A DNA stretch of 64,000 nt from an uncultured Alphaproteobacteria bacterium (GCA_963807015.1 CAWEAS010000013.1:175897-239896), one strand, 5' to 3'. Numbered from the stretch's first letter, positions 19,771 through 36,611 are shown. The notes: a model not told the origin generated them from the sequence alone. Made by a program: numbers and translations.

Positions 19771-21639
19771 TCAACCGGGCTTGTCGAGCTTTGCGGCTTT
19801 GTCACGGTCATACCACCAGGTTTCCGGGATGCCGCGCATATAGGTCGGATGACCCTTCGGCTGGCCGAAGACGTCCCAGTAGGCGACGCGGTGGGCGGCC
19901 TTGAACCAGTGAGGCACCCAATACTGTCCGGCGCGCAGCACCCGGTCGAGGGCGCGGGTGGCGACAACAAGCTCGGGCCGCGAGTTGGCGTCGATGATCT
20001 TTTCGATCAGGGCATCGACAGCCGGATCGGCGATCCCGGCGACATTCTGCGATCCCTTGGTGGCCGCCGCTCGCGACGAAAAATAGGTGCGAAGCGAATC
20101 GCCGGGGACGGTCGAGAAGCTCATGCGGTCGACGACCACGTCGAAATCGAAATCGTCGACCCTCGCCTTGAACTGGACCGCATCGACGAGGCGCAGCGTT
20201 GCCTCGATGCCGAGCGTCTTGAGGTTCTTGATGAACGGCATGTGATGCGGTTCGAACGTCGGCTCGTCGATCAGGAATTCGAACACGATCGGCTCGCCCT
20301 TGGCGTCGACCCGCTTGCCGCCTTTGATGGGGAAACCGGCGTCCTGGAGCATCTGCGAGGCCTTGCGCAACAACGTGCGGTCTTGGCCCGACCCGTCGGA
20401 TACCGGGGGCGTGAATGGTTCCCCGAACACCTCGTCCGGCACCTTGCCGCGCCAGGGTTCGAGCAGCTTCAGCTCCTCGGGGCTCGGCAGTCCTTCGGCC
20501 ATCAGGTCGGAGTTTTGAAACACCGACACCGTGCGCCGATAGGAGCCGTACATGATGTTCTTGTTGGTCCACTCGAAATCGAAGGCGTAACTCACCGCCT
20601 CGCGCAGACGCCGGTTGGCGAACTTGGCGCGCCGCGTGTTGAACATCCAGCCCTGGCCGCCCGACGGCGTATCGTCGGGAAATTCCTCGCGATGGACCCG
20701 GCCATCCTTGATAGCCGGGAAGTCGTAGCGCGTCGCCCAGGTGCGCGAGGTGAACTCCTCGCGGAACAGATAGTTCTTCGCCGTGAAGCCTTCGAAGCCG
20801 ACCTCGCGATCGCGATAATACTCGAAGCGCACCACGTCGAAATTGTTCTGGCCGACATTCACCGGCAGGTTGGTGCCCCACCAATCGGAAACGCGCTGAT
20901 ATTCGATGAAGCGGCCCGCATCGAAGCGGCCGACCCGATAGGCGCCCGAGCCGAGCGGAATATCGAGACCCGTCTCCTCGAACGAGCGCGTCGCGTAGTA
21001 GGCGCGCGAGAAAATCGGCAGGCCGGCCACGAACAGCGGTACGTCGCGCGCGCGCTTCGGAACAAAGCGCACCGTGAGCACCTCGTCATCATCCGCTTCT
21101 GCGCTCGCCATCTCGCGCGTCAGCTGCTGGATGATCGGATGCCCCTTCTCCTTGAGGAGGTTGAGCGAAAATGCGGCGTCGCGGGCCGTCAGCTTGGTGC
21201 CGTCGTGGAACCGCGCCTCGGGACGGATGTGGAAGCGATAGACGAGGCCGTCAGCCGATACCCGCACCTTGTCGGCGGCGAGGCCGTACATCGCGTCGGG
21301 CTCGTCCTCCGCCCGCGCCATCAGCGTCGCGAACGTCGCCTCCATGCCGAGCGCAGCGTCACCGCGCAGGATGAAGCTGTTGAGCGAATTGAAGGTCACA
21401 AAGTTCTGATTGAAGATCCGGTTCGATCCGATCTGGGAAAACACGCCGCCCTTCGGGGCATTCGGGTCAACGTAATCGAAGTGGCGGAAATCGGCGGGAT
21501 ATTTGAGATCACCGAACGCCGACATGCCGTGGGTTTCAGTATCGCCTTCGGCTGCCGCGGGGATGCCGGTCGCAAACGCGCCGGCCGCGCCGGCGCTCAG
21601 CACCAGCACGTCACGGCGCGTCAGGCGATAGCGATTCAC
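19771..21639 (-). CDS. yejA: Extracellular solute-binding protein, family 5 (YejA-like), copy 1
   Basis: A TAT/Sec signal (RLTRRDVLVLSAGAAGAFA) follows GTG 21639 with a GGAGG RBS. This is a 622-aa cluster C SBP. Confidence 0.8.
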   Translation of the reverse strand: MNRYRLTRRDVLVLSAGAAGAFATGIPAAAEGDTETHGMSAFGDLKYPADFRHFDYVDPNAPKGGVFSQIGSNRIFNQNFVTFNSLNSFILRGDAALGMEATFATLMARAEDEPDAMYGLAADKVRVSADGLVYRFHIRPEARFHDGTKLTARDAAFSLNLLKEKGHPIIQQLTREMASAEADDDEVLTVRFVPKRARDVPLFVAGLPIFSRAYYATRSFEETGLDIPLGSGAYRVGRFDAGRFIEYQRVSDWWGTNLPVNVGQNNFDVVRFEYYRDREVGFEGFTAKNYLFREEFTSRTWATRYDFPAIKDGRVHREEFPDDTPSGGQGWMFNTRRAKFANRRLREAVSYAFDFEWTNKNIMYGSYRRTVSVFQNSDLMAEGLPSPEELKLLEPWRGKVPDEVFGEPFTPPVSDGSGQDRTLLRKASQMLQDAGFPIKGGKRVDAKGEPIVFEFLIDEPTFEPHHMPFIKNLKTLGIEATLRLVDAVQFKARVDDFDFDVVVDRMSFSTVPGDSLRTYFSSRAAATKGSQNVAGIADPAVDALIEKIIDANSRPELVVATRALDRVLRAGQYWVPHWFKAAHRVAYWDVFGQPKGHPTYMRGIPETWWYDRDKAAKLDKPG

Positions 21640-23511
21640 TGACGACCTCCGACCTTGGCTGCGAGCGCGGTGTCCCACCACCAGATCGTCGGAAACGCGC
21701 CGAGCCCGTATTCGGGCAGCTTGTCGGGATGGGCGAAGCGGTTCCACCGTGCGGTGCGCACGCGAGGATAGGTCCACTGCGGCACCACATACTGGTTCCA
21801 CAGCAGCACGCGGTCGAGCGCGTGGGTCGCGGCGACAACCTCGTCGCGATCCTTTGCGAAGACGATGCGTTCGATCAGCTTGTCGACTGCCGGATTCTTG
21901 ATGCCGATGAGGTTGCGCGAGCCCATGGTATCGGCCGACTTCGAGCCCCAGTATTCGCGCTGCTCGTTGCCGGGCGTCAGCGATTGGCGCCAGGTGCTGA
22001 CCACCATGTCGAAATCGAAGTTGCGCTCGCGGTTTATGTACTGCGCTTCGTCGACGCTGCGAACGGTGACCGTGATGCCGAGCCGCTCCAACGAGGGCTT
22101 GTAGAACAGGAATAAGCGTTCGAAATCAGGCGAAGTCGCGATGTTGAGGATTTCCACCGTCATCGGTTCGCCGGTCTTGGTGTTGACGAGCTTCTGGTCA
22201 CGGATCTCCCACCCGGCCTGGCGCAACAAGCGCGTTGCCGTACGCAAATTGTTGCGCACCGCTTCCGGATTGCCGTTCACCGGGGGCTTGTATTCGGTGG
22301 TGAACACCTCCGGCGGCACTTCGTTGCGGACGGTTTCCAGAATTTCAAGCTCGCGCCCGGTCGGCAGGCCGGTGGAGGCGAGCTCGGTGCCCTCGAAATA
22401 ACTGCCGATGCGCGAATACATTCCGAAGAACATCTGCTTGTTCATTTCTTCGAAATCGAGCGCATGGTTGAACGCGAGGCGCACCCGCGGATCGGCGAAC
22501 TTCTCGCGCCGCGTATTGAGCACGAAGGCCTGCATCACCCCGGAGATGCGGATCGGAAATTCCTCGAGCACCACCCGCTTGTCCTGGACGGCGGGGAAAT
22601 CGTAGGCGGTCGCCCAGTTCTTGGCGCTGTTCTCCGAGCGGTAGTCGATCCGATCCGCCTTGAAGGCTTCGAGCGACACCAGCGTGTCGCGGTAATATTC
22701 GTAGCGGATTTCGTCGAAGTTGTTGGTGCCGATGCGGACCGGAAGGTCCTTGCCCCAGTAGTTCTTGACGCGCTCGTAGACGATCGAGCGGCCCGCTTGG
22801 AATTCCTTGATCTTGTAGGGGCCGCTGCCAAGCGGCGGCTCGAGCGAGGTCGCGCCGATGTTGCGCTTGTTGCCGGACTTGTCGACGCCTTCGTACCAAT
22901 GCTTCGGCAGAACGAACAGCTCGCCGACGATCATCGGCATCTCGCGATTGCCGGGCGCATCGAAGGTGAACGTCACTTCGTGATCGCCGTTCTTCTCGAG
23001 CTTCTTCACGTGCTGGTAATAGCTCGAATAGAGCGGATTGTTGGTCTTGAACGCCTCGAACGAGAAGATCACGTCGTCGGCGGTGATCGGCTCGCCGTCG
23101 TGCCACTTCGCCTCAGGACGCAGGCGATAGGTCACGGAGGAGAAATCATCGGGATGGCTCACGCTCTCGGCGATCAGACCATAGCCAGTCGACACCTCAT
23201 CGAGCGAATTCGTCATCAACGTGTCGTAGATGAGGTTCACTCCCATGGCCTGGGTGCCTTTGAGGCCGGAGACCACGAGGTTGAAATTGTCGAAGGTCCC
23301 GAATCCGCCGAGCCGCACCGTCGCCGCCCTTCGGCGCATCGGCGCGCACGTAATCGAACTGCTTGAAGCCGGGCGGATACTTGAGATTGCCGAACAGCGA
23401 CAGTCCGTGCCGCCAGGCCTCTTCGGGAGCCGGGGCCTGAGCTGTAAGCACGAACGAGGCCGCAATCAGGGCGACGGCCGCACCGACGCGGCGCAGGAAT
23501 TTCGAGTTCAA
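21636..23511 (-). CDS. yejA: Extracellular solute-binding protein, family 5 (YejA-like), copy 2, interrupted by a +1 frameshift near 23322
   Basis: The N-terminal 63 aa with signal peptide (ORF 23197-23511, MNSKFLRRVGAAVALIAASFVLTAQA...DAPKGG) continues in another frame as TVRLGGFGTFDNFNL of ORF 21636-23465. An extra G sits in 'ggcggcGacgg'. Confidence 0.8.
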
Positions 23512-23745
23512 CCCGGCTCTCCTTGGGTATGCGAACGGCCCCCACTTTAGCCGAGGGCCACGGACCGGTCAGGACTAAATATGTTGGCGCTCGATTGCGG
23601 CGCCACCATGCCGCACCAGGCCACCTCTCACGAGAGGCTCGCACTGCACAAAGGTTTCGAAAATTTAATGCGCGTTTGCCGGGCCACCTCGAATGGCCGC
23701 GGCGAACCTTCCTTCCTCAGGGGAGGATGCGCATCTCCCTGCGCA

Positions 23746-24300
23746 TTATTGATTGGCAACCGGCAGCGGCTGCGGATTCTCTGACAGCGAATTGAGGTAA
23801 TCGATGACGTCGGCGCGCTGGTTGCCGCGCGGCAGGCCGGCGAACGTCATCTTGGTTCCGGCAATGTAGCCGCGCGGATTGGTCAGGAATTTGTTCAGTT
23901 CATCGATCGTCCACGTCCCGCCCTTGGCCTTCATGGCATCGGAATACATGAAGCCGGCTTCGGACGCGCGCGGCCGGCCGACGACGCCGTAGAGGTTCGG
24001 ACCGATCCCGTTGGGGCCGCCTTTGGTGAAAGTGTGACAAGCCTGGCATTGCTTCGCGACCGTCTCGCCGCGGGCGATGTCGGCGTGGGCGAGCAGCTTT
24101 TCGATCGATTCTTCGGGTGCCGCCGCCGGGGCTGCTCCGCCGCCGGCCGGAGCGGCGGCTTTCTTGACGTCGATCTCGTAGCCGGGCTTCGCCGGCTCGG
24201 CAGGGGCGTACAGCGCTTCCGCGGCGATGTTGAGCCCGACGAGGCACAACAGGGTAAAAAGCAGCGCACCAGCGAACTTGTTGAATTCGAAGGAGTTCAT
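23746..24300 (-). CDS. cycM: Membrane-anchored cytochrome c (CycM-like)
   Basis: N-terminal TM anchor, an Ala/Pro-rich linker, then a class I cytochrome c domain with heme motif CQACH. Confidence 0.8.
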   Translation of the reverse strand: MNSFEFNKFAGALLFTLLCLVGLNIAAEALYAPAEPAKPGYEIDVKKAAAPAGGGAAPAAAPEESIEKLLAHADIARGETVAKQCQACHTFTKGGPNGIGPNLYGVVGRPRASEAGFMYSDAMKAKGGTWTIDELNKFLTNPRGYIAGTKMTFAGLPRGNQRADVIDYLNSLSENPQPLPVANQ

Positions 24301-24449
24301 CACTGTTCCGTCGCGTTGAAAGCTGGGGCGCGGGACCCCTCAGGTGGCGCACAGATAGCTGGTTTGCCTCGCCCCTGGCAACCCGTATAAGCGAAGCGGC
24401 ACATGAATTTAGGAATGGCTGAAAGGCGCGCCGAATCGGCACGGAATGC

Positions 24450-25175
24450 ATGGCGACAGACGTCATTATCATCATCCCGGCGCGCATGACGGCAACCCGT
24501 CTTCCCGGCAAGCCGCTTGCTGATATTGCCGGCCGGCCGATGATCGCCCATGTGCTCGACCGTGCCGCCGCCGCGGCCGTCGGCCCCGTGTTCGTGGCGA
24601 CGGATTCGCCGGAGATCGCGAGCGCCATCGAAAAAGCCGGTGGCCAGGCCGTGATGACGCGGTCCGATCATGCCTCGGGCTCCGACCGAATCTACGAGGC
24701 GCTCACCCGTGTCGCTCCCGACGCCGGTATCGTCATCAACGTGCAGGGCGATCTGCCGACGCTTGACCCTGCCGATATCCGCGCCGCGCTCGACCCGCTC
24801 GCCGATCCCGCTGTCGACATCGCGACCCTCGCCGCGGAAATCCGCAAGACCGAGGAGCGGACCAATCCGAACGTGGTCAAGGTGGTCGGCACGCCGGTCG
24901 GCAAAGACCGCCTGCGCGCCCTCTATTTCACCCGCGCCACCGCGCCCACGGGCGAAGGCCCGTTCTATCACCACATCGGCCTCTACGCCTATCGCCGCGC
25001 GGCGCTCGAACGCTTCGTGAGCTTGCCGCCGTCGCCCCTGGAGCGGCGCGAGAAGCTCGAGCAGCTGCGCGCGCTCGAGGCCGGCATGCGCATCGATGTG
25101 GCGATCGTGCGTTCGGTGCCGCTCGGCGTCGACACGCCGGAGGACCTCGCGGTCGCGCGCGCGTTGTTGACTTGA
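24450..25175 (+). CDS. kdsB: 3-deoxy-manno-octulosonate cytidylyltransferase KdsB
   Basis: N-terminus [18 protein letters not shown], and a length of 241 aa typical of KdsB. Confidence 0.9.
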
Positions 25176-25201
25176 CGGCCGCACCTCCGTACGCAGCGCG
25201 G

Positions 25202-26068
25202 ATGACCGACACCAAGCGTTTGAAGATCGTCTTTCAAGGCGAGCCCGGGGCGAACTCCGATATCGCCTGCCGGGAAGCGTATCCGCAGGCCGAGCCCGTG
25301 CCCTGCCCGACCTTCGAGGACGCGCTCAACGCCATCGCGTCCGGCGAAGCCGATCTCGGCATGATCCCGATCGAAAATTCGGTCGCCGGCCGGGTCGCCG
25401 ATATCCATCACCTGATGCCGGTCGCGGGCCTGCACATCATCGCCGAGTGGTTTCTGCCGATCCGCAACCAACTGATGGCGCTCAAGGGCGTCCGGCTTGA
25501 CGAGATCAAGTCGGTCGAGAGCCACATCATGGCGCTCGGCCAATGCCGCAACTACATCCGCAAGCTCGGCATCAAGAGCGTGGTCGCGGCCGATACTGCC
25601 GGCGCCGCGCGCGAGGTCGCGGCACGCGGCGACCGCACCGTGGCTGCGATCGCCTCAAAACTTGCCGCCGAAATCTACGGGCTCGACATTCTGGCGTCGA
25701 ACATCGAAGACGCCTCGCACTCGACCACCCGCTTCATCGTGCTGTCGCGCGAGGCGGCGCCGGCCAAACGCGGCACCGGCCGGATCATCACCACGTTTAT
25801 TTTCCAGGTGCGCAATATTCCGGCGGCGCTCTACAAGGCGCTCGGCGGCTTTGCGACCAACGGCGTCAACATGACCAAGCTCGAAAGCTACATGCTCGAA
25901 GGCACCTTCACCGCGACCCAGTTCTATTCCGACGTCGAAGGCCATCCGGACGACCCCGGCCTCAAACTGGCGCTCGACGAACTGGCGTTCTTTTCCCAGC
26001 CGGGCTCGCTCAAAATCCTCGGCGTCTATCCGGCCCATCCGTTCCGGGCCACCATGGGAGGCAAGTGA
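25202..26068 (+). CDS. pheA: Prephenate dehydratase PheA
   Basis: PDT domain followed by an ACT domain; the conserved TRF and ESRP-like motifs are present. Confidence 0.85.
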   Translation: MTDTKRLKIVFQGEPGANSDIACREAYPQAEPVPCPTFEDALNAIASGEADLGMIPIENSVAGRVADIHHLMPVAGLHIIAEWFLPIRNQLMALKGVRLDEIKSVESHIMALGQCRNYIRKLGIKSVVAADTAGAAREVAARGDRTVAAIASKLAAEIYGLDILASNIEDASHSTTRFIVLSREAAPAKRGTGRIITTFIFQVRNIPAALYKALGGFATNGVNMTKLESYMLEGTFTATQFYSDVEGHPDDPGLKLALDELAFFSQPGSLKILGVYPAHPFRATMGGK

Positions 26069-26102
26069 GGAAGCAAGTGAGGACGCGGGTTATAGGAGGC
26101 AA

Positions 26103-26585
26103 GTGACCATGGGCTCGCTCACGTTGGCGCAGGCGAACCGCATCATCGAGGCGATTCTGGCGCGCGGTGCCGAACTCGGCTGCCGGCCGCTCGCCGCGAT
26201 CGTGGTCGAGCCGGGCTGCAAGGTGAAGGCGTTCCAGAAGGAGGACGGCGCCTCGATGATCCGGTTCGAGATGGCGTTCGGCAAGGCCTATGCGGCGCTC
26301 GCGCTCGGCCGATCGTCGCGGCTCGTGCGCATCCGCAACGAGGAGAAGCCGGCGTTCATGCGCTACCTCATCGCCGCGAGCGGCGACCAGCTTTTTCCCG
26401 AAGGCGGCGGCCTGCCGATTCGCGATGACAACGGCGAGGTGGTCGGCGCCGTCGGCGTCACCGGCGATACCGAGGATCGCGACGAGGAGCTTGCCGTCCA
26501 CGGCATCCATGCCGCCGGCCTCAAGACCGACGACGACTGCCGCGACATGGGCCGCCGCACCAACGCCCGCCTAGCCGACAAGTAG
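26103..26585 (+). CDS. GlcG/HbpS-like heme-binding protein (DUF336)
   Basis: About 160 aa with an ...AVGVTGDTEDRDEELA... region typical of the GlcG/HbpS family. Confidence 0.65.
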   Translation: MTMGSLTLAQANRIIEAILARGAELGCRPLAAIVVEPGCKVKAFQKEDGASMIRFEMAFGKAYAALALGRSSRLVRIRNEEKPAFMRYLIAASGDQLFPEGGGLPIRDDNGEVVGAVGVTGDTEDRDEELAVHGIHAAGLKTDDDCRDMGRRTNARLADK

Positions 26586-26810
26586 CGGCTACTCTCCGCG
26601 GCCCCTTTCCCTGGAGCCGGCGCGGGCGTAAGGTTGCCTATAAAGGCATCAAAGGGAGGCTTTCGAGTCCCAATCCTTGCGGTTCGGCCGCCGCGATCTT
26701 CGCGCCGGTGCATTTTTTACGAACCTGCCGTTTCCAGTTCCTCGCGGCGCGCCCGCGCAACATCCCAACGCCAGCGTCAGGTCGGTGCCACCACCAACAG
26801 CCCAGCGGGT

Positions 26811-26831
26811 GCATGCATGGCGCATGCATGC
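26811..26831. promoter_or_regulatory. Palindromic GCATGCATG-gc-GCATGCATGC element, 32-52 bp upstream of the 26863 start codon
   Basis: Perfect 9-10 bp inverted/direct palindromic units; a candidate transcription-factor operator. Confidence 0.35.
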
Positions 26832-26862
26832 GCTGCAGAGCCGCGTGAAGGAGAGAGACCCT

Positions 26863-28755
26863 ATGACCCATTCGAACAGCACAAGCGCAAAAAGCACTCC
26901 CGTGAAAGGTTGTTTGTTGCTCGGCGTCGCCACCCTTGTGTTGACCGGTGCGGCCGCGATGACGGCGCCGGCCTCGGCCGATCAGTTGCTGAGCGGCGCG
27001 ATCACCTCGGCCTCGGGCCAGAAGCTCGAAGGCATCCAGGTCTCTGCCAAGAAGGAAGGCTCGACGATCACGACGAGCGTGTTCACCGACCAGAACGGCC
27101 AGTATTTCTTCCCGGCGCTCCCGGACGGCAAATACCGGGTGTGGGCGCAGGCGCTGGGCTTCGAGACCAGCAAGACCGCCGTCGATCTCACTTCGGCTTC
27201 GCATCAGGATTTCAAGCTCGCCGCGATCACCGATCCCGAGCAGAAGATCAAGCAGATGCCGTCCGAGATGCTGGCAGCGGCGCTGCCCGATGAGACCGAA
27301 GCCGACGCGCAGATGAAGCGCATCTTCCACAACCAGTGCACCGGTTGCCATACGCCGGGCTATCCGCTGCAGTTCAAGTTCGATGAAGCCGGCTGGAACA
27401 AGATCATCAACCTGATGAAGATGGTCGCCAACACCGGCGAATACATGGGCCCGAATCACAAGCCGAACGGCATCATCGAGTTCAATCGCAAGGAGCTTGC
27501 CGCCTATCTCGCCCGCGCCCGCGGCCCCGGCGAAACCTCGATGAAGTTCAAGGACCGTCCGCGGCCGACCGGCGAAGCCGCCCGCGTCGTATGGCAGACC
27601 TATGATCTGCCGCTCAGCCCGGTGAGCGGCATGGGCGTGCGCGGCGCGAAATACACCGTCAATGACGGCTACGACTGGAACCTCGGCACGCCCTCGAAGC
27701 TCGGCCAGCTTCCCCACGACGGCGCCATGGGGCTCGACGGCAATCTCTACTACACCGTCAACAATCCGAACCCCGACGTGACCGTCGGCAAGGTCGACAC
27801 CAAGACCGGCGAGGTGAAGTATCTCAAGGTCGAGCGCAAGGACGGCAAATGGGCCGCGACCGCCCATGGCCTCACCCGCGACGCCAACGGCGACCTGTGG
27901 TTCGACGTCAATCCGGGCCGCCGCAGCCTCGGCAAGCTCGAAGCGAAGACCGAGAAGATCAGCGTCTACGAGACGCCGGAGCCGATGTCGCCGCTCGGCG
28001 GCGCCGTCACCCTCGATGTCGACGGCAAGGGCCGCATCTGGGCGTCCGCGCCCGACGGCGTCGTCGCCTTCGATCCGGCGACCGAGAAGTTCACCGACTT
28101 CAAGTCGATCCTGCCGTTCAAGAACGCCAAGGGCACCAACTCGACCTACGGCGCCGCGGGTGACCGCGACGGCAACGGCTGGTGGGCGCAGATGGCGTTC
28201 GACACCATCGGCAAAGCCGACATGGCGAGCGGCAAGACCACCGAGATCGTGCTGCCGTCGCTCAAGGACGAGATGGCGCGGTTGCCGGAGGCGAAGCGCG
28301 CCTTCTACGAGAACTTCACCGACCGCACCAACGGCAATCCGGTTCCCTGGAGCCAGGGTCCGCGCCGCATGGGCACCGACAAGAACGCCGACGTGCTGTG
28401 GGTCGGCAATTCATGGGGCGCGACGCTCGCCCGCATCGACACCAAGACGGGCCAGACCTCGATCATCCCGTTCCCCGATCCGGCCTATCAGCCGTATCAC
28501 ATCGCGGTCGACATGAACCACAATGTGTGGGGCAACCTCTGGACCGCGGACCGGATCGCAAAATACGACCCGGCCGCCGGCCAATGGACGCTGTTCGATC
28601 TGCCGATGCGCGGCACCGAGATCCGCCACATCTCGCTCCTCGAGCGCGACGGCGTGACCAAGGTGATCGTGCCGGTCTATCGCGACAGCATGATGGGCGT
28701 GATGACGCTCCGCAGCGAAGCCGACATCGCCGCCCTCAAGACGGCGGCGAAGTAA
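26863..28755 (+). CDS. Secreted multidomain protein: CarboxypepD_reg-like domain + mono-heme cytochrome c domain + C-terminal beta-propeller
   Basis: An AAGGAGAG RBS precedes ATG 26863. Signal peptide (LLLGVATLVLTGAAAMTAPASA). CarboxypepD_reg motif (GQYFFPALPDGKYRVWAQALGFET). Heme motif CTGCH. About 6-7 repeats of the D/NG-x-LW/Y type in the C-terminal 400 aa. Confidence 0.7.
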   Translation: MTHSNSTSAKSTPVKGCLLLGVATLVLTGAAAMTAPASADQLLSGAITSASGQKLEGIQVSAKKEGSTITTSVFTDQNGQYFFPALPDGKYRVWAQALGFETSKTAVDLTSASHQDFKLAAITDPEQKIKQMPSEMLAAALPDETEADAQMKRIFHNQCTGCHTPGYPLQFKFDEAGWNKIINLMKMVANTGEYMGPNHKPNGIIEFNRKELAAYLARARGPGETSMKFKDRPRPTGEAARVVWQTYDLPLSPVSGMGVRGAKYTVNDGYDWNLGTPSKLGQLPHDGAMGLDGNLYYTVNNPNPDVTVGKVDTKTGEVKYLKVERKDGKWAATAHGLTRDANGDLWFDVNPGRRSLGKLEAKTEKISVYETPEPMSPLGGAVTLDVDGKGRIWASAPDGVVAFDPATEKFTDFKSILPFKNAKGTNSTYGAAGDRDGNGWWAQMAFDTIGKADMASGKTTEIVLPSLKDEMARLPEAKRAFYENFTDRTNGNPVPWSQGPRRMGTDKNADVLWVGNSWGATLARIDTKTGQTSIIPFPDPAYQPYHIAVDMNHNVWGNLWTADRIAKYDPAAGQWTLFDLPMRGTEIRHISLLERDGVTKVIVPVYRDSMMGVMTLRSEADIAALKTAAK

Positions 28756-28878
28756 GCGGCGCGGCGCCGACTGCGCGAAGGCGAGAGTGAACGAAAGCCG
28801 GGCCGCGGAAACGCGGCCCGGACCGCAATGACGGATGCGGCATAGTTAATTTGATTATCGCTCCCCGGTGTTAGTATC

Positions 28879-29853
28879 ATGGATATTTTCAAGGCGACCG
28901 TTCCGGAGGACAAGTTTCATAAGAACTTTGCGCGCACTCTGCAACCAAGCGGCCATGGCGTCCGCGAAGTACTGAAGTGCTGGGCAGACGGTTTCACGGA
29001 TCGCGACGGCAAATTTGTTCGAGAATTCCAAACAACCTATAATTCGAGCTTCTGGGAGCTATATCTATTTGCCGTCCTCAAGCGACTAGGCATCAAAGTT
29101 AATATGACCTACGACTCTCCTGATTTCGTAGCGGCGGACCATCCCTTTGCCATTGAAGCTACCATAGCGGGACATGCTGCGGATGCCGTTGCAGAATGGG
29201 AGAAGACTTTTGAGGTTATTCTGTCCGAAGATCCCAAAGAAGCTATTGATCAAACGACTATTCGCCTAGCGAATGCATTAAGCGCAAAGTCGACGTCATA
29301 TCAAACGAAATATAATACTTTGCCGCACATGGCGAATCGCGCTTACGTTGTTGCCATCTCCAATTTTGCAACGCCCGGCTTTTTTTTATTGGGTGATACC
29401 GCGCTCCAGCGGTTGCTCTATGATCCAGCCGGCGAGACGGCGCTTGCAAAGGCGAACGGCGCTCTGGTGCCGCTTGGCTTGTTCCGCGACGATGGGATAT
29501 CCCATATCAGCGGCATACTTTATTCGTCGGTAGCTAGCTTCGGCAAGGCACGTGCCCTTGGACCGGATGGCGATGAATTCACATTTCAGGCCGTCCGAGA
29601 ACGTAATGGCGGCGAGCGCATTCACATCGTCGCGAAGAAATCAGAGTACAAGGAAACGCTGACCGATGGCTTGCGCTACTTCTCAAATCCCTTCGCCACG
29701 GTACGGCTTGATCCACAGTTGTTTCGCGACGACGGAATCAAGCGATATCTGGGAGAGAAGGACGGCACGATGCTTATCACATGCAATCCCGAAGGTGATC
29801 TCGAGTGGCGGCAGGTAATTCACCTTAACCCGAGCCTCATCAACCGCAGTTGA
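28879..29853 (+). CDS. Hypothetical protein encoded in a low-GC island (possible PD-(D/E)xK-like core)
   Basis: 324-aa ORF in about 48% GC DNA against a 65% background. The DSPDF...FAIEAT segment is weakly reminiscent of a restriction-endonuclease-like fold. It contains a T8 tract (29380-29387). Confidence 0.6.
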   Translation: MDIFKATVPEDKFHKNFARTLQPSGHGVREVLKCWADGFTDRDGKFVREFQTTYNSSFWELYLFAVLKRLGIKVNMTYDSPDFVAADHPFAIEATIAGHAADAVAEWEKTFEVILSEDPKEAIDQTTIRLANALSAKSTSYQTKYNTLPHMANRAYVVAISNFATPGFFLLGDTALQRLLYDPAGETALAKANGALVPLGLFRDDGISHISGILYSSVASFGKARALGPDGDEFTFQAVRERNGGERIHIVAKKSEYKETLTDGLRYFSNPFATVRLDPQLFRDDGIKRYLGEKDGTMLITCNPEGDLEWRQVIHLNPSLINRS

Positions 29854-30035
29854 CACCCGTCGAAGCAGTTCCGACGCATTCCTGTTTAGCGTTCAGTTGA
29901 TGGGCGACCAGGGGCCAATCAGCTGGTAGCGAACCCGCGCGGGCTTAAAACCGATGAATACCTCGATTGTCCCTTTCCGTTGACTGCCCCTAGGTGCTGA
30001 TGGTGAACAGCCCACGTACGTCAATCGCTATCATG

Positions 30036-31077
30036 CTAACGCACCGCGTTTCCAAATATTATTATGTCGTCAGGATCGCTCCAAATATCGGCACTCACCT
30101 TATCGAACAACCCGGTTGTAAACTTCTGAACCGGGAGATCAGAATAGAACATTGGCGACGTTAGATCGATCCCGGACATGATGTCGATGCCGAACTGTCT
30201 TCGGGCGTATTCGACGGTGCGCAAGAGGTCTTCTATAGGACTCGATCGCTTTGTTTCATCAATTTGGAAGTCTCTGACCTCGGGTGGATCGAGCCTGAGG
30301 TGTTGCATAATTACTCGCATCTCAGCGGACCATGCTTTCAAATACCTCTGCTCGAACGCTAAACGTCTTGCGAAGTCAAGGAAGAAGCGGCCCTTAAGTG
30401 TCGGAACTCGGATCATCGAGTGCTCAACTGAGGCAATAAAACCCACTCCCGCAAGCATAGCCATGGCTTCCCGAAGCGGAGAGCCCTTTGAGCCAACCTC
30501 CTTTTCAAATGAAGGGCCATGATAGCATCCTGACGTAGCCACGACTTGCAAAGCGGCCATTTTTAATCCCAGTACCCCCCCCATGATTCGCAAATGTTGT
30601 TACATCAGAATGGGAGAGCTTGCCGAATACAACACCAAAAAGAAGGTCTGACGAAACTTCATTAAATATGTACGCATTCATCCAGTTTCTTTGCTCGACC
30701 GCGTCCACATCGAAACTTTCGGGGATGGGGATGATCCTTAGCCCTCGCAAAAGAGATCGGGTTGTCGAGTTGTCGCGGTACGTGCGAAGAACTTCGTCAA
30801 TTTTTGCCCGATTCCGAATGCGATCACGGACGAAATACAATTTAAGTGATGATTCGGCATCGAACAGAAGGGTGCGCAGGTCTTTCTCGATCCCTTCTTC
30901 ATGGCCCCAAAGAACCTGTGAAACCAGCGGTCGACTAGCGTCGCGAAGAATTACGCACCCGTAATCGAAAGTTCGCCGCTCGGCCTCTCTTAGTCCAAGC
31001 AAGCGTGTGCCGGAGAACCTTTGTAAGGCCCCATCTAGCGATTCTGAAATAAATTTATGTTCAGCACTGTCTACCAC
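30036..31077 (-). CDS. Hypothetical protein in the low-GC island, split into two overlapping ORFs (30505-31077 and 30036-30593) at a poly-G(8) tract
   Basis: With 7 rather than 8 G's at 30575-30582 the frames fuse to about 350 aa (...TTFANHGG|VLGLKMAALQ...). The two ORFs overlap by 89 nt, and no independent RBS is placed for the downstream one. Confidence 0.55.
30575..30582. repeat. Homopolymeric C8/G8 simple sequence repeat at the frameshift site
   Basis: Eight consecutive C's on the plus strand lie exactly where the two island ORFs change frame. Confidence 0.9.
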
Positions 31078-31180
31078 CGGACTGGCCCTCCGGGTGCCAG
31101 TTTCATTTCCTTCCGTAACTACGTATAGGCGACCCGCCTAGACCGAGTCGATAAGAGCCACGTTTGGTATCAGGCCGTCC

Positions 31181-31942
31181 CTACCGCGCGACGGGGTCCA
31201 TGCCGCTTTTCCGAATAGCCTCGGACGCATGCGGCGAAGCCAGAAACGCGATCAGTCGTTTGGCGCCTTCAGTGTTGCCCGAGCCGGCGACGACGGCGGC
31301 TGAAAACGTCTGAACGAACTGGATCTCCGGGGCGATGTTGCCGGCGAATTCGACGCCTGATGCGTGCAAAATTTCGCTGACCGGCATGACCGCAAGATCG
31401 GCAGTTCCAGCGGCGACCATGTCGGTGGCGTCGCTGCCGCGCGCCGCCGGCTTCGCGTTGACTTTGTCCGCGATGCCGAGCCGCGGGAAAAGATCTTTCA
31501 TCAGCCAGATGCCGCTCGTGCTTGCGGGCATCGCCACGGTCTTGGCCTTGACCATGAGTTGCTTGAAGGCCTCGACGGTGCTCACGTCGGGCTTAGCAGT
31601 GCCCGCCCGGACGGCGATGCCGAGGGGTACGCGCGCCAGATCCATGTCCGTGCCGGCAGCGATCCGCTTCTCGGCGATCAGGTCATTGAGGCCCTCGCGC
31701 GAGAGGATCACGACGTCGGCGGCCGCACCGCCGGCGAGCTTCGCAGCAATGGTTTGCGGCCCCGATCCCTGCGACGCACCTGATCCGGTCGTGACCTTGA
31801 GGCCGCTCGCCCGCTCGAACTCCGGCAAAAGCTGTTCGTACGCGCCACCAAATCCGCCCGACATCAGAACGTTCACCTGCGCCGAGGCCGAAACCGGCGA
31901 AAGCAGCAGCACGGCCAAGACGACGAATGAGAAACCCTTCAT
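31181..31942 (-). CDS. ModA-like periplasmic substrate-binding protein (molybdate/tungstate-type, PBP2 fold)
   Basis: A GAGGAGG RBS precedes ATG 31942. Signal peptide (MKGFSFVVLAVLLLSPVSASA); about 254 aa; C-terminus ...AKRLIAFLASPHASEAIRKSGMDPV. Confidence 0.7.
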   Translation of the reverse strand: MKGFSFVVLAVLLLSPVSASAQVNVLMSGGFGGAYEQLLPEFERASGLKVTTGSGASQGSGPQTIAAKLAGGAAADVVILSREGLNDLIAEKRIAAGTDMDLARVPLGIAVRAGTAKPDVSTVEAFKQLMVKAKTVAMPASTSGIWLMKDLFPRLGIADKVNAKPAARGSDATDMVAAGTADLAVMPVSEILHASGVEFAGNIAPEIQFVQTFSAAVVAGSGNTEGAKRLIAFLASPHASEAIRKSGMDPVAR

Positions 31943-32010
31943 GATTGCCTCCTCGCGGGCCTGCTCCCGCGCTCCCAGCGTGTGAACGACGGTGGATCGC
32001 GTCCGGTCCT

Positions 32011-32821
32011 CTACTTGGCTGCGGGCGGCGCGAGGGCGACGACGGCTTCGGTCGTCAGCAACAGAAATGTCAGCGTCTCCTGCAGGTAGAGGCGCACAAC
32101 GCTGTCGGTGTGGCTGAGATAGCCGATCGAGACGTCCTGGCCGACATGCAGATCGAAATCGCCGCCGCGGGTGGTAAGCACGAAGCCGCCGGTGATGGCA
32201 GGAGTTCCAGATGATCTCGTCTTTGACGAGCTTCTTGACGTGTTCCAGCACCGGGTAACCGTTGTCGCTGACCTCGGCGAGCGCCGTATAGGCATCGGCA
32301 CCGAGCAGGACCGAATATGGCCCGTTGACCCCGACGAGACGCAGCTGGCTCAAAGCCTTTGCAATGGCGTCAGGGTACTGACGCACGTCGGCCGGGAGCG
32401 TGATCGGCGGATTGCTCGTCCCTTGGCGCAGGCCGACAATACTCGCCGCGGAGTACCCCTCGAAAATCGCCCGGTCCTCGGCATAAGCGATCTTCTGCGC
32501 GGCGTCCTTCGCAGGTTGCCAATCGGAATCGTCTGCGCCGCGTTCCACGTCGTCGATCTGCTGGCGATCGAGTTCGAACGGGACCCGAAACTCCACCAGC
32601 GCCTTGACCTCACGCTGCCGCGCAAGAATCCCGTCGCCGGGCGCTGTAATCGTCTTGAGGTGGCCGGTCCCGACGGCGGAAAGGCCGACGCCGCCGGCGC
32701 CATGCACGTCGACCACGCGCCGCCCGGCGAGATAGCGCTTGAGCGTGCGCGTCGTCTCCTCCTCGATGTCCGCCCACGCCGCGTCGGAGATCGGGGCAAG
32801 CTCGCGATGAAGATTATTCAT
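32011..32821 (-). CDS. Family 1 encapsulin shell protein (linocin M18-like), interrupted by a +1 frameshift near 32205
   Basis: The hallmark N-terminus MNNLHRELAPISDAAWADIEEE is present. The C-terminal third (GGFVLTTRGGDFDLHVGQDVSIGY...) lies in another frame (ORF 32011-32301). An extra A sits in TGGAaCTCC. The ATG overlaps the dyp stop (CATGAATAA). Confidence 0.85.
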
Positions 32822-33887
32822 GCCGGTTTTCTCCTTTGAGGGAACCGATGCCCAGCGAACCATCCGACGCTGCTGTCGCGGATGGTGCAGGCTCGGCCAC
32901 CGATGCTGCGGCGGGCGTCGCAACGGCATCGTCGTCGTTGACGGATTCCAAGAATGACGCGGATGGCACAAAGAACAAGGTACCGGTCACCGCGCGGCTG
33001 AAGTCAAGCAGCCGGTCGTAATTGCCGGGCGGCCGCCCGACGAACATGTTCTCGATCATCTGCTCGGTCACCCGGGGCGTGCGGCAATAACCGATGAAAT
33101 ACGTGCCGAACTCGCCCGCGACCGCATTCCCGAAGGGCATGTTGTCGCGCAGAATCTTGACCTCTTTGCCGTCCTCAGTGATCGTCGTCAGCGCGTTGTG
33201 GGCCGAGGTCGGCTTTATCTTGTCGTCGAGTTCGATGTCGGACAGCTTGGTGCGGCCGATGATGCGTTCCTGCATCTCGGTCGACAGCGCGTTCCAGCCG
33301 TCCATGTCATGCAGATATTTCTGCACGATCACGTAGCTGCCTCCGGCAAATGCAGGGTCCTCATCGCCGATGATCGCGGCCTCGGCCACGGCCCCTCCGC
33401 GCGGATTCTCGGTGCCATCGACGAACCCCAAGAGGTCGCGCTCGTCGAAGTAACGAAAGCCATGAACCTCGTCGACCGCCGACACCGCGTCACCGAGGCT
33501 CTCCATGATCCTGGTCGCGAGTTCGAAGCAGAGATCCATGTGTTTCGCGCGGATATGGAATAGCAGATCGCCAGGCGAGGAGACCGCGTGGCGGGATCCC
33601 GCCCTGATCTCGCGGAAAGGATGCAGCTCGGCCGGCCGCGGGTCGCCGAACAGGCGGTCCCAGGCGTCGGAACCGATCCCCATCACGCAGGTGAGACCGG
33701 CTTCCAGGTTACGAAATTCCACCGCACGGAATAAAGCAGGGAGGTCGCCACAGAACGATCGAACCGTCGTGCAATTGTCGGGGCCTGGGTTGATCGTCAC
33801 CACGAGAAAAATCGCCGCCCGGGTCAGCGGCGCTGCGACCGGCTGCGAAACAATCAAGCCATCGATGCCCGCTTTGGCGGCAGTCAT
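32814..33887 (-). CDS. Dye-decolorizing (DyP-type) peroxidase with a C-terminal encapsulin targeting peptide
   Basis: DyP motifs (GFVDGTENP; the distal Arg region). The C-terminal tail ...DGSLGIGSLKGENRHE matches the encapsulin cargo-loading consensus (SLGIGSLK). Confidence 0.9.
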   Translation of the reverse strand: MTAAKAGIDGLIVSQPVAAPLTRAAIFLVVTINPGPDNCTTVRSFCGDLPALFRAVEFRNLEAGLTCVMGIGSDAWDRLFGDPRPAELHPFREIRAGSRHAVSSPGDLLFHIRAKHMDLCFELATRIMESLGDAVSAVDEVHGFRYFDERDLLGFVDGTENPRGGAVAEAAIIGDEDPAFAGGSYVIVQKYLHDMDGWNALSTEMQERIIGRTKLSDIELDDKIKPTSAHNALTTITEDGKEVKILRDNMPFGNAVAGEFGTYFIGYCRTPRVTEQMIENMFVGRPPGNYDRLLDFSRAVTGTLFFVPSASFLESVNDDDAVATPAAASVAEPAPSATAASDGSLGIGSLKGENRHE

Positions 33888-34126
33888 TAAGGGAGCACTC
33901 GTTGGGCGACATCAGGGAGCGACGTCAGGGGTGAGCTTGATAAGTCCACATTGCCCTGCTCATCAAGAGATAGCAAAGGCCAGTCTTGTCTGAAATTGAC
34001 ACAAAGTGATCCCGCAGCAGAGGCAGTTTGTCCGCCGCGCGGTGTCGCGTCGCCTGTGCCTTGCGGAGCGGCCCTATCGCGAAGTCCGTTCGCTCGCTCC
34101 GCGATGTGTGAGGCCGGACAGCAGAG

Positions 34127-34552
34127 CTATGGCTGCTTGGTCAACACCGTGCAGGACGCGACGCGCGTAACCGGCGACTGCAACATATAACAGAGTTCCA
34201 ACCGGTTTGGCGCGAGCAGCGTTCCGATGCTGTATCCGTCGTCGTCCACCAGATAGATCGGACCGGTGTGCGATATCACGGCGATGACTTTGTCATTGCC
34301 GCGCGTCGACGAAAACGTGCCGGAGAAACGCCGGCCATCCTGCTTGTCGACTGTCAGCGTGAACGCCACGCTGTTCAACCGCGGCTCGGCCCCTGCCGTG
34401 GCGGCAGCGTGATGAGGGTTGCCGGTACCCAGGATGATCGTTTCACTGTCGCCTTTCCACGTGCCGCGCAGGTCGGGAACGGCGGTTTGTGCCATCGCCG
34501 AAGTCGCAACCGTCAACGTCGTAAGTGTCACCATCCAAGCAAGTTTCGACAT
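34127..34552 (-). CDS. Secreted hypothetical protein
   Basis: Signal peptide (MVTLTTLTVATSAMA); 141 aa; no recognisable motif. Confidence 0.5.
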   Translation of the reverse strand: MSKLAWMVTLTTLTVATSAMAQTAVPDLRGTWKGDSETIILGTGNPHHAAATAGAEPRLNSVAFTLTVDKQDGRRFSGTFSSTRGNDKVIAVISHTGPIYLVDDDGYSIGTLLAPNRLELCYMLQSPVTRVASCTVLTKQP

Positions 34553-34904
34553 GGTTGGCTCCTTTTGCAGGTAGAACGCTCGATAGTCGCGAAGTCACTG
34601 CAAATCAGCGCATAGTCGCCGATGGTCCCGGCGACCTGAGCGATATAACACTCGTACGTGTTGCTTTTACTTCGGTTGTTGGTGCTTTCCTATTCCCGCA
34701 ACCGGGCTTGACCCCCTCCCCCGATTTTTTCGTAAACATTTTGTGTCCGCGGCTCTGATAAGTCGAAGCGCCTCGCAATCTATGAGATACCTGGGCGCGG
34801 CATTTTCGATACCCGCTCGCGTTGTGGCTGGGACGAGGATCGCAGCCTTCGCGACCACTTTCGGATGCCGGCAAAATCAGCCAATGTAGTCCGATGGCAA
34901 AGCT

Positions 34905-34926
34905 GCAATCGCAAAGACGCGATTGC
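34905..34926. promoter_or_regulatory. Inverted repeat GCAATCGC-n6-GCGATTGC, about 20 bp upstream of the esterase start
   Basis: Perfect 8-bp arms; an operator-like site. Confidence 0.3.
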
Positions 34927-34946
34927 GCATCGTAGGGAGGACGTCA

Positions 34947-36566
34947 ATGACAGCGGCGCGCATCTTGTTGTGTTTGATGATCGGCTTTGCAGCGTCGATG
35001 CCTGCTCAAGCCGATCCGATCCGCACCACCGGCGGCCTCGTCTCCGGCGTCGCCGTCGGCGGCGGCGTGCAGGCCTACAAGGGCATCCCCTTCGCAAAGC
35101 CGCCGGTCGGCGACCTGCGATGGCGTGCGCCGCAACCGGCGACGCCATGGAGCGGGACGCTTGTTGCCGACAAGTATCGCGACGTGTGCGTGCAACGCCC
35201 GCCGCTCGGCGGCAATTCGATCTTTACGGAAATCTTCTTCACCCCCATCGCGCCGCAAAGCGAGGACTGCCTCCATCTCAACATATGGACGGCCGCAGCG
35301 CCCGGCGAAAAGCGGCCGGTCATGGTTTGGGTTCACGGCGGCGGCTTCGTCGGCGGGTCGGCGGCAGCGGAAATTTATGACGGCGCCGATCTCGCCAAAA
35401 AGGGCGTCGTGATGGTGTCGTTCAACTACCGGGTCTGGAAGTTCGGCTTCCTTGCCCTGCCGGAGCTCTCGAAAGAGTCCGAGCATCACGCGTCCGGCAA
35501 CTACGGTCTGCTCGATCAGGTCGCGGCGCTGCAATGGGTGAAGGAGAACATCGCGGCGTTCGGCGGCGATCCCGACAACGTCACGATCTTCGGCCAGTCC
35601 GCGGGGGCCGCGGCCACGAATTTCCTCATGGCGACGCCCCTGGCGAAGGGACTGTTCCATCGGGTCATCGGCGAGAGCGGCGGCGCGTTTGCACCGCCGG
35701 TTGGGCGATCGTTGGTACTGCGCAGCCTCTTCATCTCGTATCAGCTGGACCTTCGCGATGCGGAGGCTGAAGGATCGAAGCTCATGGCAGCCCTCAATGC
35801 AAAGAGCCTCGCCGAACTGCGGCAAAAAACGCCCGAGCAGATTCTCGCGATCCCGTCTGCCTACCGCTTCGAGTCGTCGATCCCGATCAAGGACGGCTAT
35901 GTGCTGCCGGCGACGACGGAGGAGATTTTTGCGAGCCACAAGTACATCGACGTGCCCTCTCTGATCGGCTCGAACTCCGATGAAGGTTCGAACTTCCCGA
36001 CCATGAAGACGCTCGCGGCGTTCCGCGAGGATGCGCACAAGACCTTCGGGCCGCTTGCCGACGAATTCTTGAAAGCCTACCCGGCAAACGATGACGACCA
36101 GGCCGCCCGCGCGAGCGCAGCGTCCGTTCGCGACATGCGTCTCTATTGGCCGAGCATGCAGTGGGCCGAGGCGCAAGCCCGCACGGGACAGTCGAAGGTC
36201 TTCTATTATTACTTCGCCTATCACCCGCCGGCGCCCGCCAACGAGGTCTACGTCGAAAACCTCGGCAAGAACCTCGGCGCCTACCACGGCGCGGAACTCG
36301 CTTACGTGTTCGGCAACTACATTCCACACAAATTTACGTGGACCGATGCGGACCGCGGGCTCACGCGCAAAGTCTCGCAGTACTGGATCAATTTCGCCAA
36401 GACTGGCGATCCGAACGGACCGGGGCTGCCGCAGTGGCCAGCCTTCAATCCGCGTACGAACTCGGTCCTCTACATCGACAAGACAATCACGACGGGACCC
36501 ATTCCGAACCAGAAGAACTACGACCTGTGGAATTCCTTCGCCGCGAAATGGAAGGCGCAGAACTAA
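34947..36566 (+). CDS. Carboxylesterase/lipase family protein (type B carboxylesterase)
   Basis: Signal peptide; oxyanion-hole motif HGGGF; nucleophile elbow GQSAGA; about 540 aa. Confidence 0.85.
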   Translation: MTAARILLCLMIGFAASMPAQADPIRTTGGLVSGVAVGGGVQAYKGIPFAKPPVGDLRWRAPQPATPWSGTLVADKYRDVCVQRPPLGGNSIFTEIFFTPIAPQSEDCLHLNIWTAAAPGEKRPVMVWVHGGGFVGGSAAAEIYDGADLAKKGVVMVSFNYRVWKFGFLALPELSKESEHHASGNYGLLDQVAALQWVKENIAAFGGDPDNVTIFGQSAGAAATNFLMATPLAKGLFHRVIGESGGAFAPPVGRSLVLRSLFISYQLDLRDAEAEGSKLMAALNAKSLAELRQKTPEQILAIPSAYRFESSIPIKDGYVLPATTEEIFASHKYIDVPSLIGSNSDEGSNFPTMKTLAAFREDAHKTFGPLADEFLKAYPANDDDQAARASAASVRDMRLYWPSMQWAEAQARTGQSKVFYYYFAYHPPAPANEVYVENLGKNLGAYHGAELAYVFGNYIPHKFTWTDADRGLTRKVSQYWINFAKTGDPNGPGLPQWPAFNPRTNSVLYIDKTITTGPIPNQKNYDLWNSFAAKWKAQN

Positions 36567-36580
36567 GCGAAGCGTTTAGT

Positions 36581-36611
36581 GAAGCGGCCGGCCGTCACCG
36601 CCGGCCGCTTC
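36581..36611. terminator. GC-rich hairpin between convergent genes (bidirectional terminator candidate)
   Basis: The hairpin GAAGCGGCCGG-ccgtcaccg-CCGGCCGCTTC lies between the esterase stop and the TPR-sulfotransferase stop. Confidence 0.5.

What the first reader, a model, noticed from the sequence alone, without database searches (positions are those of the whole stretch)
28790..31160. Low-GC island with two convergent genes of unknown function inserted between core genes
This stretch is about 45-48% GC against about 65% for the rest of the window. It sits between a core secreted cytochrome c / propeller gene and a modA-like gene. It encodes a 324-aa protein with a weak PD-(D/E)xK-like pattern (DSPDF...FAIEAT) and a roughly 350-aa protein split by a frameshift. 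Neither resembles a family I can name. No integrase, tRNA or transposase is nearby. The size and the composition shift are typical of small horizontally acquired defence, abortive-infection or toxin modules. This is the best candidate in the window for an undescribed system.
Basis: partly seen in the sequence, partly recalled or inferred. Interest (0 to 1): 0.8.

Follow-up and report, generated by a model that had tools for sequence, protein, structure and literature searches.

The report
PD-T7-5 defence gene plus broken nuclease-like gene
The low-GC stretch is a real, horizontally acquired 2.35-kb insert, but it is not a new two-gene system: one gene belongs to the already described single-gene anti-phage family PD-T7-5, and the other is an unrelated, frameshift-inactivated copy of a rare uncharacterised nuclease-like DNA-binding protein.

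Summary
The island is real. Window 28822-31175 has 51.5% GC against 64% elsewhere, and a close relative carries different cargo in the same slot. It lies between the 3' ends of two convergent core genes. No tRNA, integrase or border repeats were found.

Gene 1 (28879-29853 +, 324 aa) matches the PADLOC model PD-T7-5 over its full length (E 7e-87). This single-gene anti-phage family comes from an E. coli functional screen and is predicted to be a PD-(D/E)xK nuclease.

Gene 2 (31077-30036 -) is split by a +1 G in a G7 tract. Removing one G restores a 346-aa protein that aligns end to end with a rare family: 54 homologues in 5.8 billion proteins, with no Pfam, NCBIfam, PHROG or PADLOC hit. Modelling suggests a restriction-endonuclease-like N-domain followed by a winged helix.

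The two genes are not partners. No gene 1 relative lies within 10 kb of gene 2 homologues in 32 loci. Gene 1's closest relatives lack gene 2.

Gene 2 homologues are stand-alone, almost always GC-poor relative to their hosts, and sometimes sit beside Wadjet, Septu-like or SEFIR genes. That makes the family a plausible but untested defence candidate.

The parts
28822..31175 (.). Variable island: 2354 bp of low-GC cargo between two convergent core genes
   Evidence: Window 20000-28821 and 31176-36593 align to L037 at 94.8% and 92.3% identity. Nothing between them aligns. L037 carries 1742 bp of different cargo there. GC is 51.5% against 64%.
28798..28821 (.). G+C-rich hairpin (10-bp stem, 4-nt loop) downstream of the cytochrome c/propeller gene. 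It is the last conserved bases before the island.
   Evidence: Inverted repeat I9. The terminator-like call is on the minus strand. Homology to L037 ends at 28821.
28851..28880 (+). Sigma-70-like promoter match (TTGATT-18-TATCAT) abutting the gene 1 start codon. This is a consensus match only.
   Evidence: One site was found against 2.1 expected by chance, so it is not evidence of function.
28879..29853 (+). Gene 1: intact 324-aa PD-T7-5 family protein, a single-gene anti-phage defence with a predicted divergent PD-(D/E)xK nuclease
29854..30035 (.). 182-bp spacer between the two convergent stop codons, with no detectable feature
   Evidence: No Rfam match. Fold energy is no better than shuffles, z -0.30. 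No terminator call.
30036..31077 (-). Gene 2: frameshift-disrupted copy (346 aa when repaired) of a rare uncharacterised family with a restriction-endonuclease-like N-domain, a winged helix and a helical C-terminus
30575..30582 (-). G8 homopolymer (C8 on the + strand): a +1 insertion in a G7 tract inside the conserved H-G-G codons, which causes the frameshift
   Evidence: The same G8 is present in an independent assembly (L036, 99.6% identical). No other homologue has a homopolymer at this site.
26863..28755 (+). Left flank: core 630-aa secreted cytochrome c / CarboxypepD_reg / beta-propeller (Vgb-lyase-like) gene. It is not part of the island.
31181..31942 (-). Right flank: core 253-aa SBP_bac_11 (ModA-like) periplasmic binding protein gene. 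It is not part of the island.

Best explanation
The island is a small variable slot between the 3' ends of two convergent core genes. It has been filled with two independent, horizontally mobile single-gene cassettes.

Gene 1 is an intact member of the PD-T7-5 family. It most likely acts alone as an anti-phage effector, cutting nucleic acid through a divergent PD-(D/E)xK-type site (P81-D82 ... E93).

Gene 2 is a separate cargo gene from a rare uncharacterised family. Its most likely activity is DNA binding through a winged helix, coupled to a restriction-endonuclease-like domain, as in a solitary restriction-like or abortive nuclease. In this lineage a +1 slip in a G7 tract has inactivated it, so only gene 1 is expected to function.

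Shown: the island borders, the family assignments, the frameshift, the lack of linkage between the two genes, and the GC-poor, patchy distribution.

Inferred: nuclease activity of either protein, a defence role for gene 2, and cargo exchange by homologous recombination in the conserved flanks.
For: - Island and replacement: blastn against L037, the L037 gene map and GC values.
- Gene 1 is PD-T7-5: full-length HMM match, E 7e-87.
- The gene 1 family is mobile: 91 plasmid records, 66 IMG/VR viral contigs and a PHROG match.
- PD-T7-5 and PD-T7-1 are listed as predicted PD-(D/E)xK nuclease systems from Vassallo et al. 2022 (PMC10952713). The screen itself is PMC9519451.
- Gene 2 conserved residues: acidic and basic E6, H7, E31, R34, D38, Q54, K65, D66 in the N-domain.
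- Independence of the two genes.
- The frameshift is real and inherited: the same G8 and the same modA junction occur in L036, which differs by 4 SNPs.
- Gene 2 family behaviour: GC-poor in 26 of 30 hosts. It is spread over Proteobacteria, Acidobacteria, Cyanobacteria and Actinomycetes.
- Gene 2 family neighbours: Wadjet JetC (L026), a PDC-M62/Septu-like pair (L007), a bSEFIR/TIR gene (L034), a SIR2-like gene (L021), TA pairs, transposases and integrases.
Against: - No experiment on this gene 1 homologue exists. It shares only about 27-33% identity with the E. coli plasmid-borne homologues.
- Strand beta-3 of gene 2 carries S-Q-V rather than (D/E)xK, so catalytic competence is unproven.
- Only about a fifth of the gene 2 loci examined have a recognised defence gene within 3.5 kb, and no background rate was computed.
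- No gene 2 family member was found in phage or IMG/VR collections.
- The insertion mechanism is unknown: there are no repeats, tRNA or recombinase.
Confidence: 0.72

Rival explanations
1. The two convergent genes form one novel two-component defence, abortive-infection or toxin-antitoxin module.
For: They lie together in one 2.35-kb low-GC insert with similar GC, 51.7% and 49.5%. Both have nuclease-like folds.
Against: - No gene 1 relative lies within 10 kb of gene 2 homologues in 32 loci.
- No neighbour is conserved around gene 2 homologues.
- The closest gene 1 relatives lack gene 2, and their homology to the window stops at the ORF ends.
- PD-T7-5 is listed in PADLOC as a one-gene model and matches over its full length.
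- The convergent orientation excludes co-transcription.
- Gene 2 is a pseudogene here while gene 1 is intact.
Confidence: 0.04
2. The gene 2 frameshift is a phase-variable ON/OFF switch, with slipped-strand mispairing in the G tract controlling a costly nuclease, rather than a dead gene.
For: The break lies exactly in an 8-nt homopolymer. The window's only two 8-nt runs are both in the island. A change of one base restores the full ORF. Apart from the frameshift the ORF has no stop codons or other lesions.
Against: Two independent assemblies both show the OFF length, G8. No other family member has a homopolymer at this site, so this is not a family trait. A tract of 7-8 G is at the short end for efficient switching; this last point rests on general knowledge and was not tested.
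Confidence: 0.12
3. The gene 2 family is a DNA-binding regulator or mobile-element maintenance protein. Its endonuclease-like domain is non-catalytic and it has no defence role.
For: - The only sequence-level domain signal is winged HTH.
- The canonical (D/E)xK is missing from strand beta-3.
- The best Foldseek hit is the non-catalytic endonuclease-like N-domain of an RPB5 subunit.
- Many loci carry transposases, integrases or plasmid genes rather than defence genes.
Against: A cluster of near-invariant charged residues (E6, H7, E31, R34, D38, K65, D66) lies in the N-domain across members at 21-43% identity. That is more typical of an active site than of a scaffold. Some loci lie directly beside Wadjet, Septu-like or SEFIR genes. 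The gene occurs alone with no conserved target operon next to it.
Confidence: 0.3
4. The frameshift, or the island itself, is an assembly or sequencing artefact.
For: Homopolymer indels are a common sequencing error. A second frameshift, in the encapsulin gene, lies 1.6 kb away.
Against: An independent Logan assembly from another run, with 4 SNP differences, has the identical G8 and the identical island/modA junction. The encapsulin indel is not in a homopolymer. The truncated 190-aa product is also in the NCBI/ENA record of a 377,761-bp contig. The island borders coincide exactly with the loss of homology to a relative.
Confidence: 0.06

Closest known systems
PD-T7-5, a single-gene anti-phage system from the E. 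coli pangenome functional selection (Vassallo et al. 2022; PADLOC model PDLC04110)
   Same: Gene 1 matches the model over nearly its whole length (1-316 on 1-341/346, E 7e-87). It has the same size class, about 320-350 aa. It stands alone. It occurs on plasmids and prophage-like contigs. It carries a PD...E motif consistent with the predicted PD-(D/E)xK nuclease.
   Different: The host is a 64% GC soil-type alphaproteobacterium, not an enterobacterium. Identity to the E. coli plasmid copies is only about 27-33%. It sits in a chromosomal intergenic slot without prophage genes. Activity is untested.
PD-T7-1, a single-gene system from the same screen (PADLOC PDLC04073)
   Same: It shares a homologous core of about 300 aa with gene 1 (E 2e-35, profile positions 108-419 of 452).
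   Different: The PD-T7-1 model has about 100 extra N-terminal positions that gene 1 lacks, and the match is much weaker than to PD-T7-5.
Solitary restriction-like nucleases that combine a PD-(D/E)xK domain with a winged helix, such as Mrr-type Type IV enzymes, and Can2/Card1/VC1899-type nucleases
   Different: No sequence-level relationship exists to any of these (Pfam, NCBIfam, PADLOC and PDB profile searches are negative). The domain order is nuclease then winged helix, whereas Mrr is winged helix then nuclease (from memory, not tested). There is no CARF domain. The canonical (D/E)xK is not in beta-3. The Foldseek whole-chain search found no significant match.
Core-genome defence or cargo hotspots, meaning variable slots between conserved genes, as described for Pseudomonas and Acinetobacter
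   Same: The flanks are conserved, the cargo differs between close relatives, a defence gene is present, and the cargo is GC-poor.
   Different: Only two alleles of the slot were seen here. One of them carries a peptidase/hemopexin gene rather than a defence gene. No recombinase or tRNA anchor is present.

Membership tests
PD-T7-5 (gene 1) | Full-length match to the family HMM (PADLOC PDLC04110) | tested here: met
   E 7.1e-87, 289.7 bits, protein 1-316 on profile 1-341/346.
PD-T7-5 (gene 1) | Single-gene system with no obligatory partner gene | tested here: met
   In the closest relatives (L040, L041), homology to the window is confined to the ORF and the neighbours differ. Gene 2 is not linked to it.
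PD-T7-5 (gene 1) | Predicted PD-(D/E)xK-type nuclease core | tested here: inconclusive
PD-T7-5 (gene 1) | Confers resistance to phage (T7 in the original screen) | not testable with these tools
   This needs cloning and plaque assays. The screen is described in PMC9519451.
PD-T7-5 (gene 1) | Carried on mobile elements or defence islands | tested here: met
   91 plasmid records, 66 IMG/VR contigs, and here a variable low-GC slot.
Two-gene defence or toxin-antitoxin module (genes 1 and 2) | Conserved co-location of the two gene families | tested here: not met
   0 of 32 gene 2 loci have a gene 1 relative within 10 kb. 0 of 2 closest gene 1 loci have gene 2.
PD-(D/E)xK restriction-endonuclease-like superfamily (gene 2 N-domain) | Alpha-beta-beta-beta-alpha-beta core fold | tested here: met
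PD-(D/E)xK restriction-endonuclease-like superfamily (gene 2 N-domain) | Catalytic D ... (D/E)xK motif on beta-2 and beta-3 | tested here: inconclusive
   D38 precedes beta-2 and is near-invariant. Beta-3 carries S53-Q54-V55 instead of (D/E)xK. K65/D66 on helix 2 and E31 on beta-1 are conserved and could substitute.
Winged-helix DNA-binding domain (gene 2, about residues 171-245) | Sequence or structure match to wHTH families | tested here: met
Known anti-phage defence systems (gene 2) | Match to any PADLOC-DB v2 model | tested here: not met
   No hit at E <= 10 for the repaired protein or for either fragment.
Defence-island-associated gene family (gene 2) | Enrichment next to known defence genes | tested here: inconclusive
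   Known or candidate defence genes lie within about 3.5 kb in several of 30 loci: Wadjet (L026), PDC-M62/Septu-like (L007), bSEFIR (L034), SIR2-like (L021), plus a Type IV restriction enzyme and mad2/mad8 in loci not identified. No background rate was computed.

The most novel reading that the evidence does not exclude
The gene 2 family is a previously unrecognised single-gene, DNA-targeting defence (restriction-like or abortive) system. The family has about 185 clusters at 50% identity, an endonuclease-like domain plus a winged helix, is GC-poor in nearly every host, and is scattered across four phyla. The copy in this window would then be a recently inactivated, or G-tract-switchable, allele lying next to a PD-T7-5 gene in a small defence slot.
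Probability: 0.3. Interest if true: 0.55.

Novelty: new member of a known kind. Interest (0 to 1): 0.33.

Why it matters
For genome annotation, the stretch can now be labelled as a PD-T7-5 family defence gene plus a pseudogene, rather than two unknown proteins. It also documents a recombinase-free variable slot between convergent core genes in a soil alphaproteobacterium. Close relatives carry different cargo in that slot.

The wider value lies in gene 2. It points to a rare protein family with no database annotation, and its fold, solitary occurrence, foreign GC and occasional defence-island neighbours make it a cheap candidate to test for anti-phage or anti-plasmid activity. Testing would need an intact homologue, because this copy is broken.

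Tried and rejected
- Pfam, NCBIfam, PHROGs and PADLOC on both gene 2 fragments and on the repaired protein gave nothing.
- PDB sequence-profile searches for both families gave only chance-level hits. S19e winged helix at E 0.57 is compatible with the wHTH but not significant.
- hhalign of the two families against each other showed no relationship (probability 0.4%).
- Foldseek of the gene 2 model against PDB found nothing at E <= 0.001.
- The AFDB50 library was not available.
- Model coordinates are not exposed, so the active-site geometry could not be checked.
- A search for domain fusions among odd-length family members found none.
- Gene 2 family in phage genomes and IMG/VR: absent.
- Border repeats, target-site duplications and tRNA: none.
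- RNA elements in the island or the spacer: none.
- The exact source record could not be retrieved by protein look-up. The source's 100%-identical protein is recorded on a 377,761-bp NCBI/ENA contig without a name.
- L038, a relative with 88% flank identity, is not syntenic downstream and was not useful for the empty-site test.
- The idea that the G tract is a conserved phase-variation site was rejected. It is unique to this allele.

Full report
**1. The observation**

- Window 28790-31160 has 51.5% GC against 64.1% for the rest. It is the lowest 2.4-kb stretch of the 64-kb window, 4.4 SD below the mean.
- The ORFs are as described. There is a 324-aa ORF at 28879-29853 (+). A convergent minus-strand gene is split into a 190-aa ORF (31077-30505) and a 185-aa ORF (30593-30036).
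- The split lies in a run of eight G (C8 on the + strand, 30575-30582). Removing one G gives a 346-aa ORF.
- There is no tRNA in the window.

**2. The island is a real, exchangeable insert**

- A metagenomic contig, L037, encodes a cytochrome c/propeller protein 98% identical to the window's left-flank gene.
- L037 aligns with window 20000-28821 at 94.8% and with 31176-36593 at 92.3% nucleotide identity. Nothing between these blocks aligns.
- In that gap L037 carries 1742 bp encoding a 499-aa Peptidase_C1/C39_2/Hemopexin protein. The window carries 2354 bp.
- The island is therefore 28822-31175. It begins right after a G+C-rich hairpin downstream of the left gene (28798-28821) and ends 5 bp from the stop codon of the ModA-like SBP_bac_11 gene.
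- There are no flanking direct or inverted repeats.
- No recombinase appears among the syntenic neighbours.
- Cargo exchange by homologous recombination in the conserved flanks is the simplest explanation. This is an inference.
- Relatives of the flank protein carry the label 'Xanthobacteraceae bacterium', which suggests a soil alphaproteobacterium as the source.

**3. Gene 1**

- The 324-aa protein matches PADLOC model PD-T7-5 over its whole length (E 7.1e-87). It matches PD-T7-1 more weakly (E 2.2e-35).
- It also matches phrog_8571 (E 1.8e-75). It has no Pfam or NCBIfam family.
- The PD-T7 systems come from a functional selection of E. coli genomic fragments against T4, lambda and T7 (PMC9519451).
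- A review lists PD-T7-1 and PD-T7-5 among systems with a predicted PD-(D/E)xK nuclease domain (PMC10952713).
- Another paper notes a low-probability RmuC-like prediction for these systems (PMC10270631).
- No mechanistic study was found among the 15 papers that mention PD-T7-5.
- In an alignment of 32 homologues the invariant residues include P81, D82, F83, E93 and A94. The canonical lysine is missing.
- The AF2 model is confident (pLDDT 89.5).
- The family has more than 523 members in the protein database. It occurs in 91 plasmid records, 15 of them from E. coli, and on 66 IMG/VR viral contigs.
- Gene 1 is therefore a new member of a known single-gene defence family. Its biochemical mechanism is still only predicted.

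**4. Gene 2**

- The repaired protein has only 54 homologues among 5.8 billion proteins. All are labelled hypothetical and are 340-354 aa when complete.
- An exhaustive profile search finds 185 clusters at 50% identity among 1.84 billion representatives. No informative domain fusions were found.
The frameshift therefore interrupts a genuine gene.
- An independent Logan assembly, L036 from run ERR11523672, is 99.6% identical over 1157 bp with four transitions. It includes the ModA junction and has the same G8 run.
- The truncated 190-aa product is also present in the NCBI/ENA record. The lesion is therefore most likely real and inherited.
- No other homologue has a homopolymer at this site.

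Fold and domains of gene 2:

- The AF2 model is confident (pLDDT 90, pTM 0.88). Its layout is an N-terminal alpha-beta-beta-beta-alpha-beta-alpha-beta domain (1-120), a long helix, a winged-helix region (about 171-245) and a helical C-terminus.
- Foldseek finds no significant whole-chain match. Its best hit is an RPB5 subunit at E 0.034. From memory, the RPB5 N-domain is classed as restriction-endonuclease-like.
- Pfam detects winged HTH families in up to 19 of 59 divergent family members, best E 6e-7.
- Residues E6, H7, E31, R34, D38, Q54, K65, D66 and D144 are near-invariant at 21-43% identity.
- D38 sits where the 'PD' aspartate is expected. Strand beta-3 has S-Q-V instead of (D/E)xK. Catalysis is therefore plausible but unproven.

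**5. The two genes are not a system**

- No gene 1 relative lies within 10 kb of gene 2 homologues in 32 loci.
- No other neighbour is conserved either.
- In one metagenomic alphaproteobacterial-type contig, the gene 2 homologue sits alone between hflX and mazG.
- The closest gene 1 relatives (83-84% identity, L040 and L041) share only the ORF with the window and have no gene 2.
- Profile comparison shows no relationship between the two families.

**6. Behaviour of the gene 2 family**

- It occurs in Acidobacteria, Pseudomonas, Pantoea, a betaproteobacterium, Cyanobacteria and many Actinomycetes.
- It also occurs on one conjugative Agrobacterium rubi plasmid, next to IS110, a VapC/Phd pair and an AddAB-like pair.
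- It is GC-poorer than its surroundings in 26 of 30 loci, by 9.6 points on average.
- Among 147 neighbouring ORFs within about 3.5 kb in 30 loci there are several known or candidate defence genes:
  - a Wadjet JetC/JetD pair (L026);
  - a PDC-M62/Septu-like pair directly adjacent (L007);
  - a bSEFIR/TIR gene (L034);
  - a SIR2-like gene (L021);
  - a Type IV restriction enzyme and mad2/mad8, in loci not identified.
- Transposases and integrases are also present.
- This pattern is compatible with a defence-island gene, but it was not tested against a background rate.
- The family is absent from the phage and IMG/VR collections.

**7. Verdict**

The stretch is acquired and defence-related, but it is neither undescribed nor a two-gene system.
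- The finding reduces to a new member of the PD-T7-5 family plus a pseudogene of a rare, unannotated nuclease-like winged-helix family.
- The latter family is the only part with real discovery potential, and it has to be tested with an intact homologue.

Noticed in passing
window 32011-32821 (minus strand), indel at about 32200: The encapsulin (Linocin_M18) gene next to the DyP peroxidase gene is frameshifted by a 1-bp insertion relative to L037, where it is an intact 269-aa gene. The indel is not in a homopolymer. The shifted frame runs on without a stop into the ModA-like gene, giving a spurious 596-aa ORF.
   Followed up: partly
L037 11965-13706 (same slot as window 28822-31175): In a close relative the slot between the cytochrome c/propeller gene and the ModA-like gene holds a 499-aa Peptidase_C1/C39_2/Hemopexin gene (GC 60.7%) instead of the two island genes. 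The slot is therefore variable and has no recombinase or tRNA.
   Followed up: partly
window 29380-29387 and 30575-30582: The only two 8-nt homopolymers in the 64-kb window both lie in the island. T8 is in frame within gene 1 (codons G-F-F-L). C8/G8 is the gene 2 frameshift site.
   Followed up: yes
L036 (Logan ERR11523672) against window 30244-31400: The independent assembly differs from the window by four substitutions in 1157 nt, all G-to-A or C-to-T transitions. It shares the island junction and the G8 run.
   Followed up: no
L041 3322-3831 and 2-664: The closest gene 1 relative (84% identity) is flanked by an ORF starting MKYAYEDL... with a GPDGGRD motif, which looks Mrr-like from memory, and by a recombinase-like ORF. 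This suggests a small defence or mobile context there.
   Followed up: no
L007 11191-14032 (Pseudomonas rossensis) and L026 1499-8322 (Streptomyces sp. yr375): Gene 2 homologues lie directly beside a PDC-M62/Septu-like two-gene pair in L007 and beside Wadjet JetC with a following 444-aa ORF in L026. In L026 the ORF as called carries about 430 extra N-terminal residues before the JetC match.
   Followed up: partly
one search hit list (P0059, P0076, P0084, P0110 and others): A subset of gene 1 homologues is 390-419 aa rather than about 320 aa. This may reflect an N-terminal extension like the one in the PD-T7-1 model. It was not examined.
   Followed up: no
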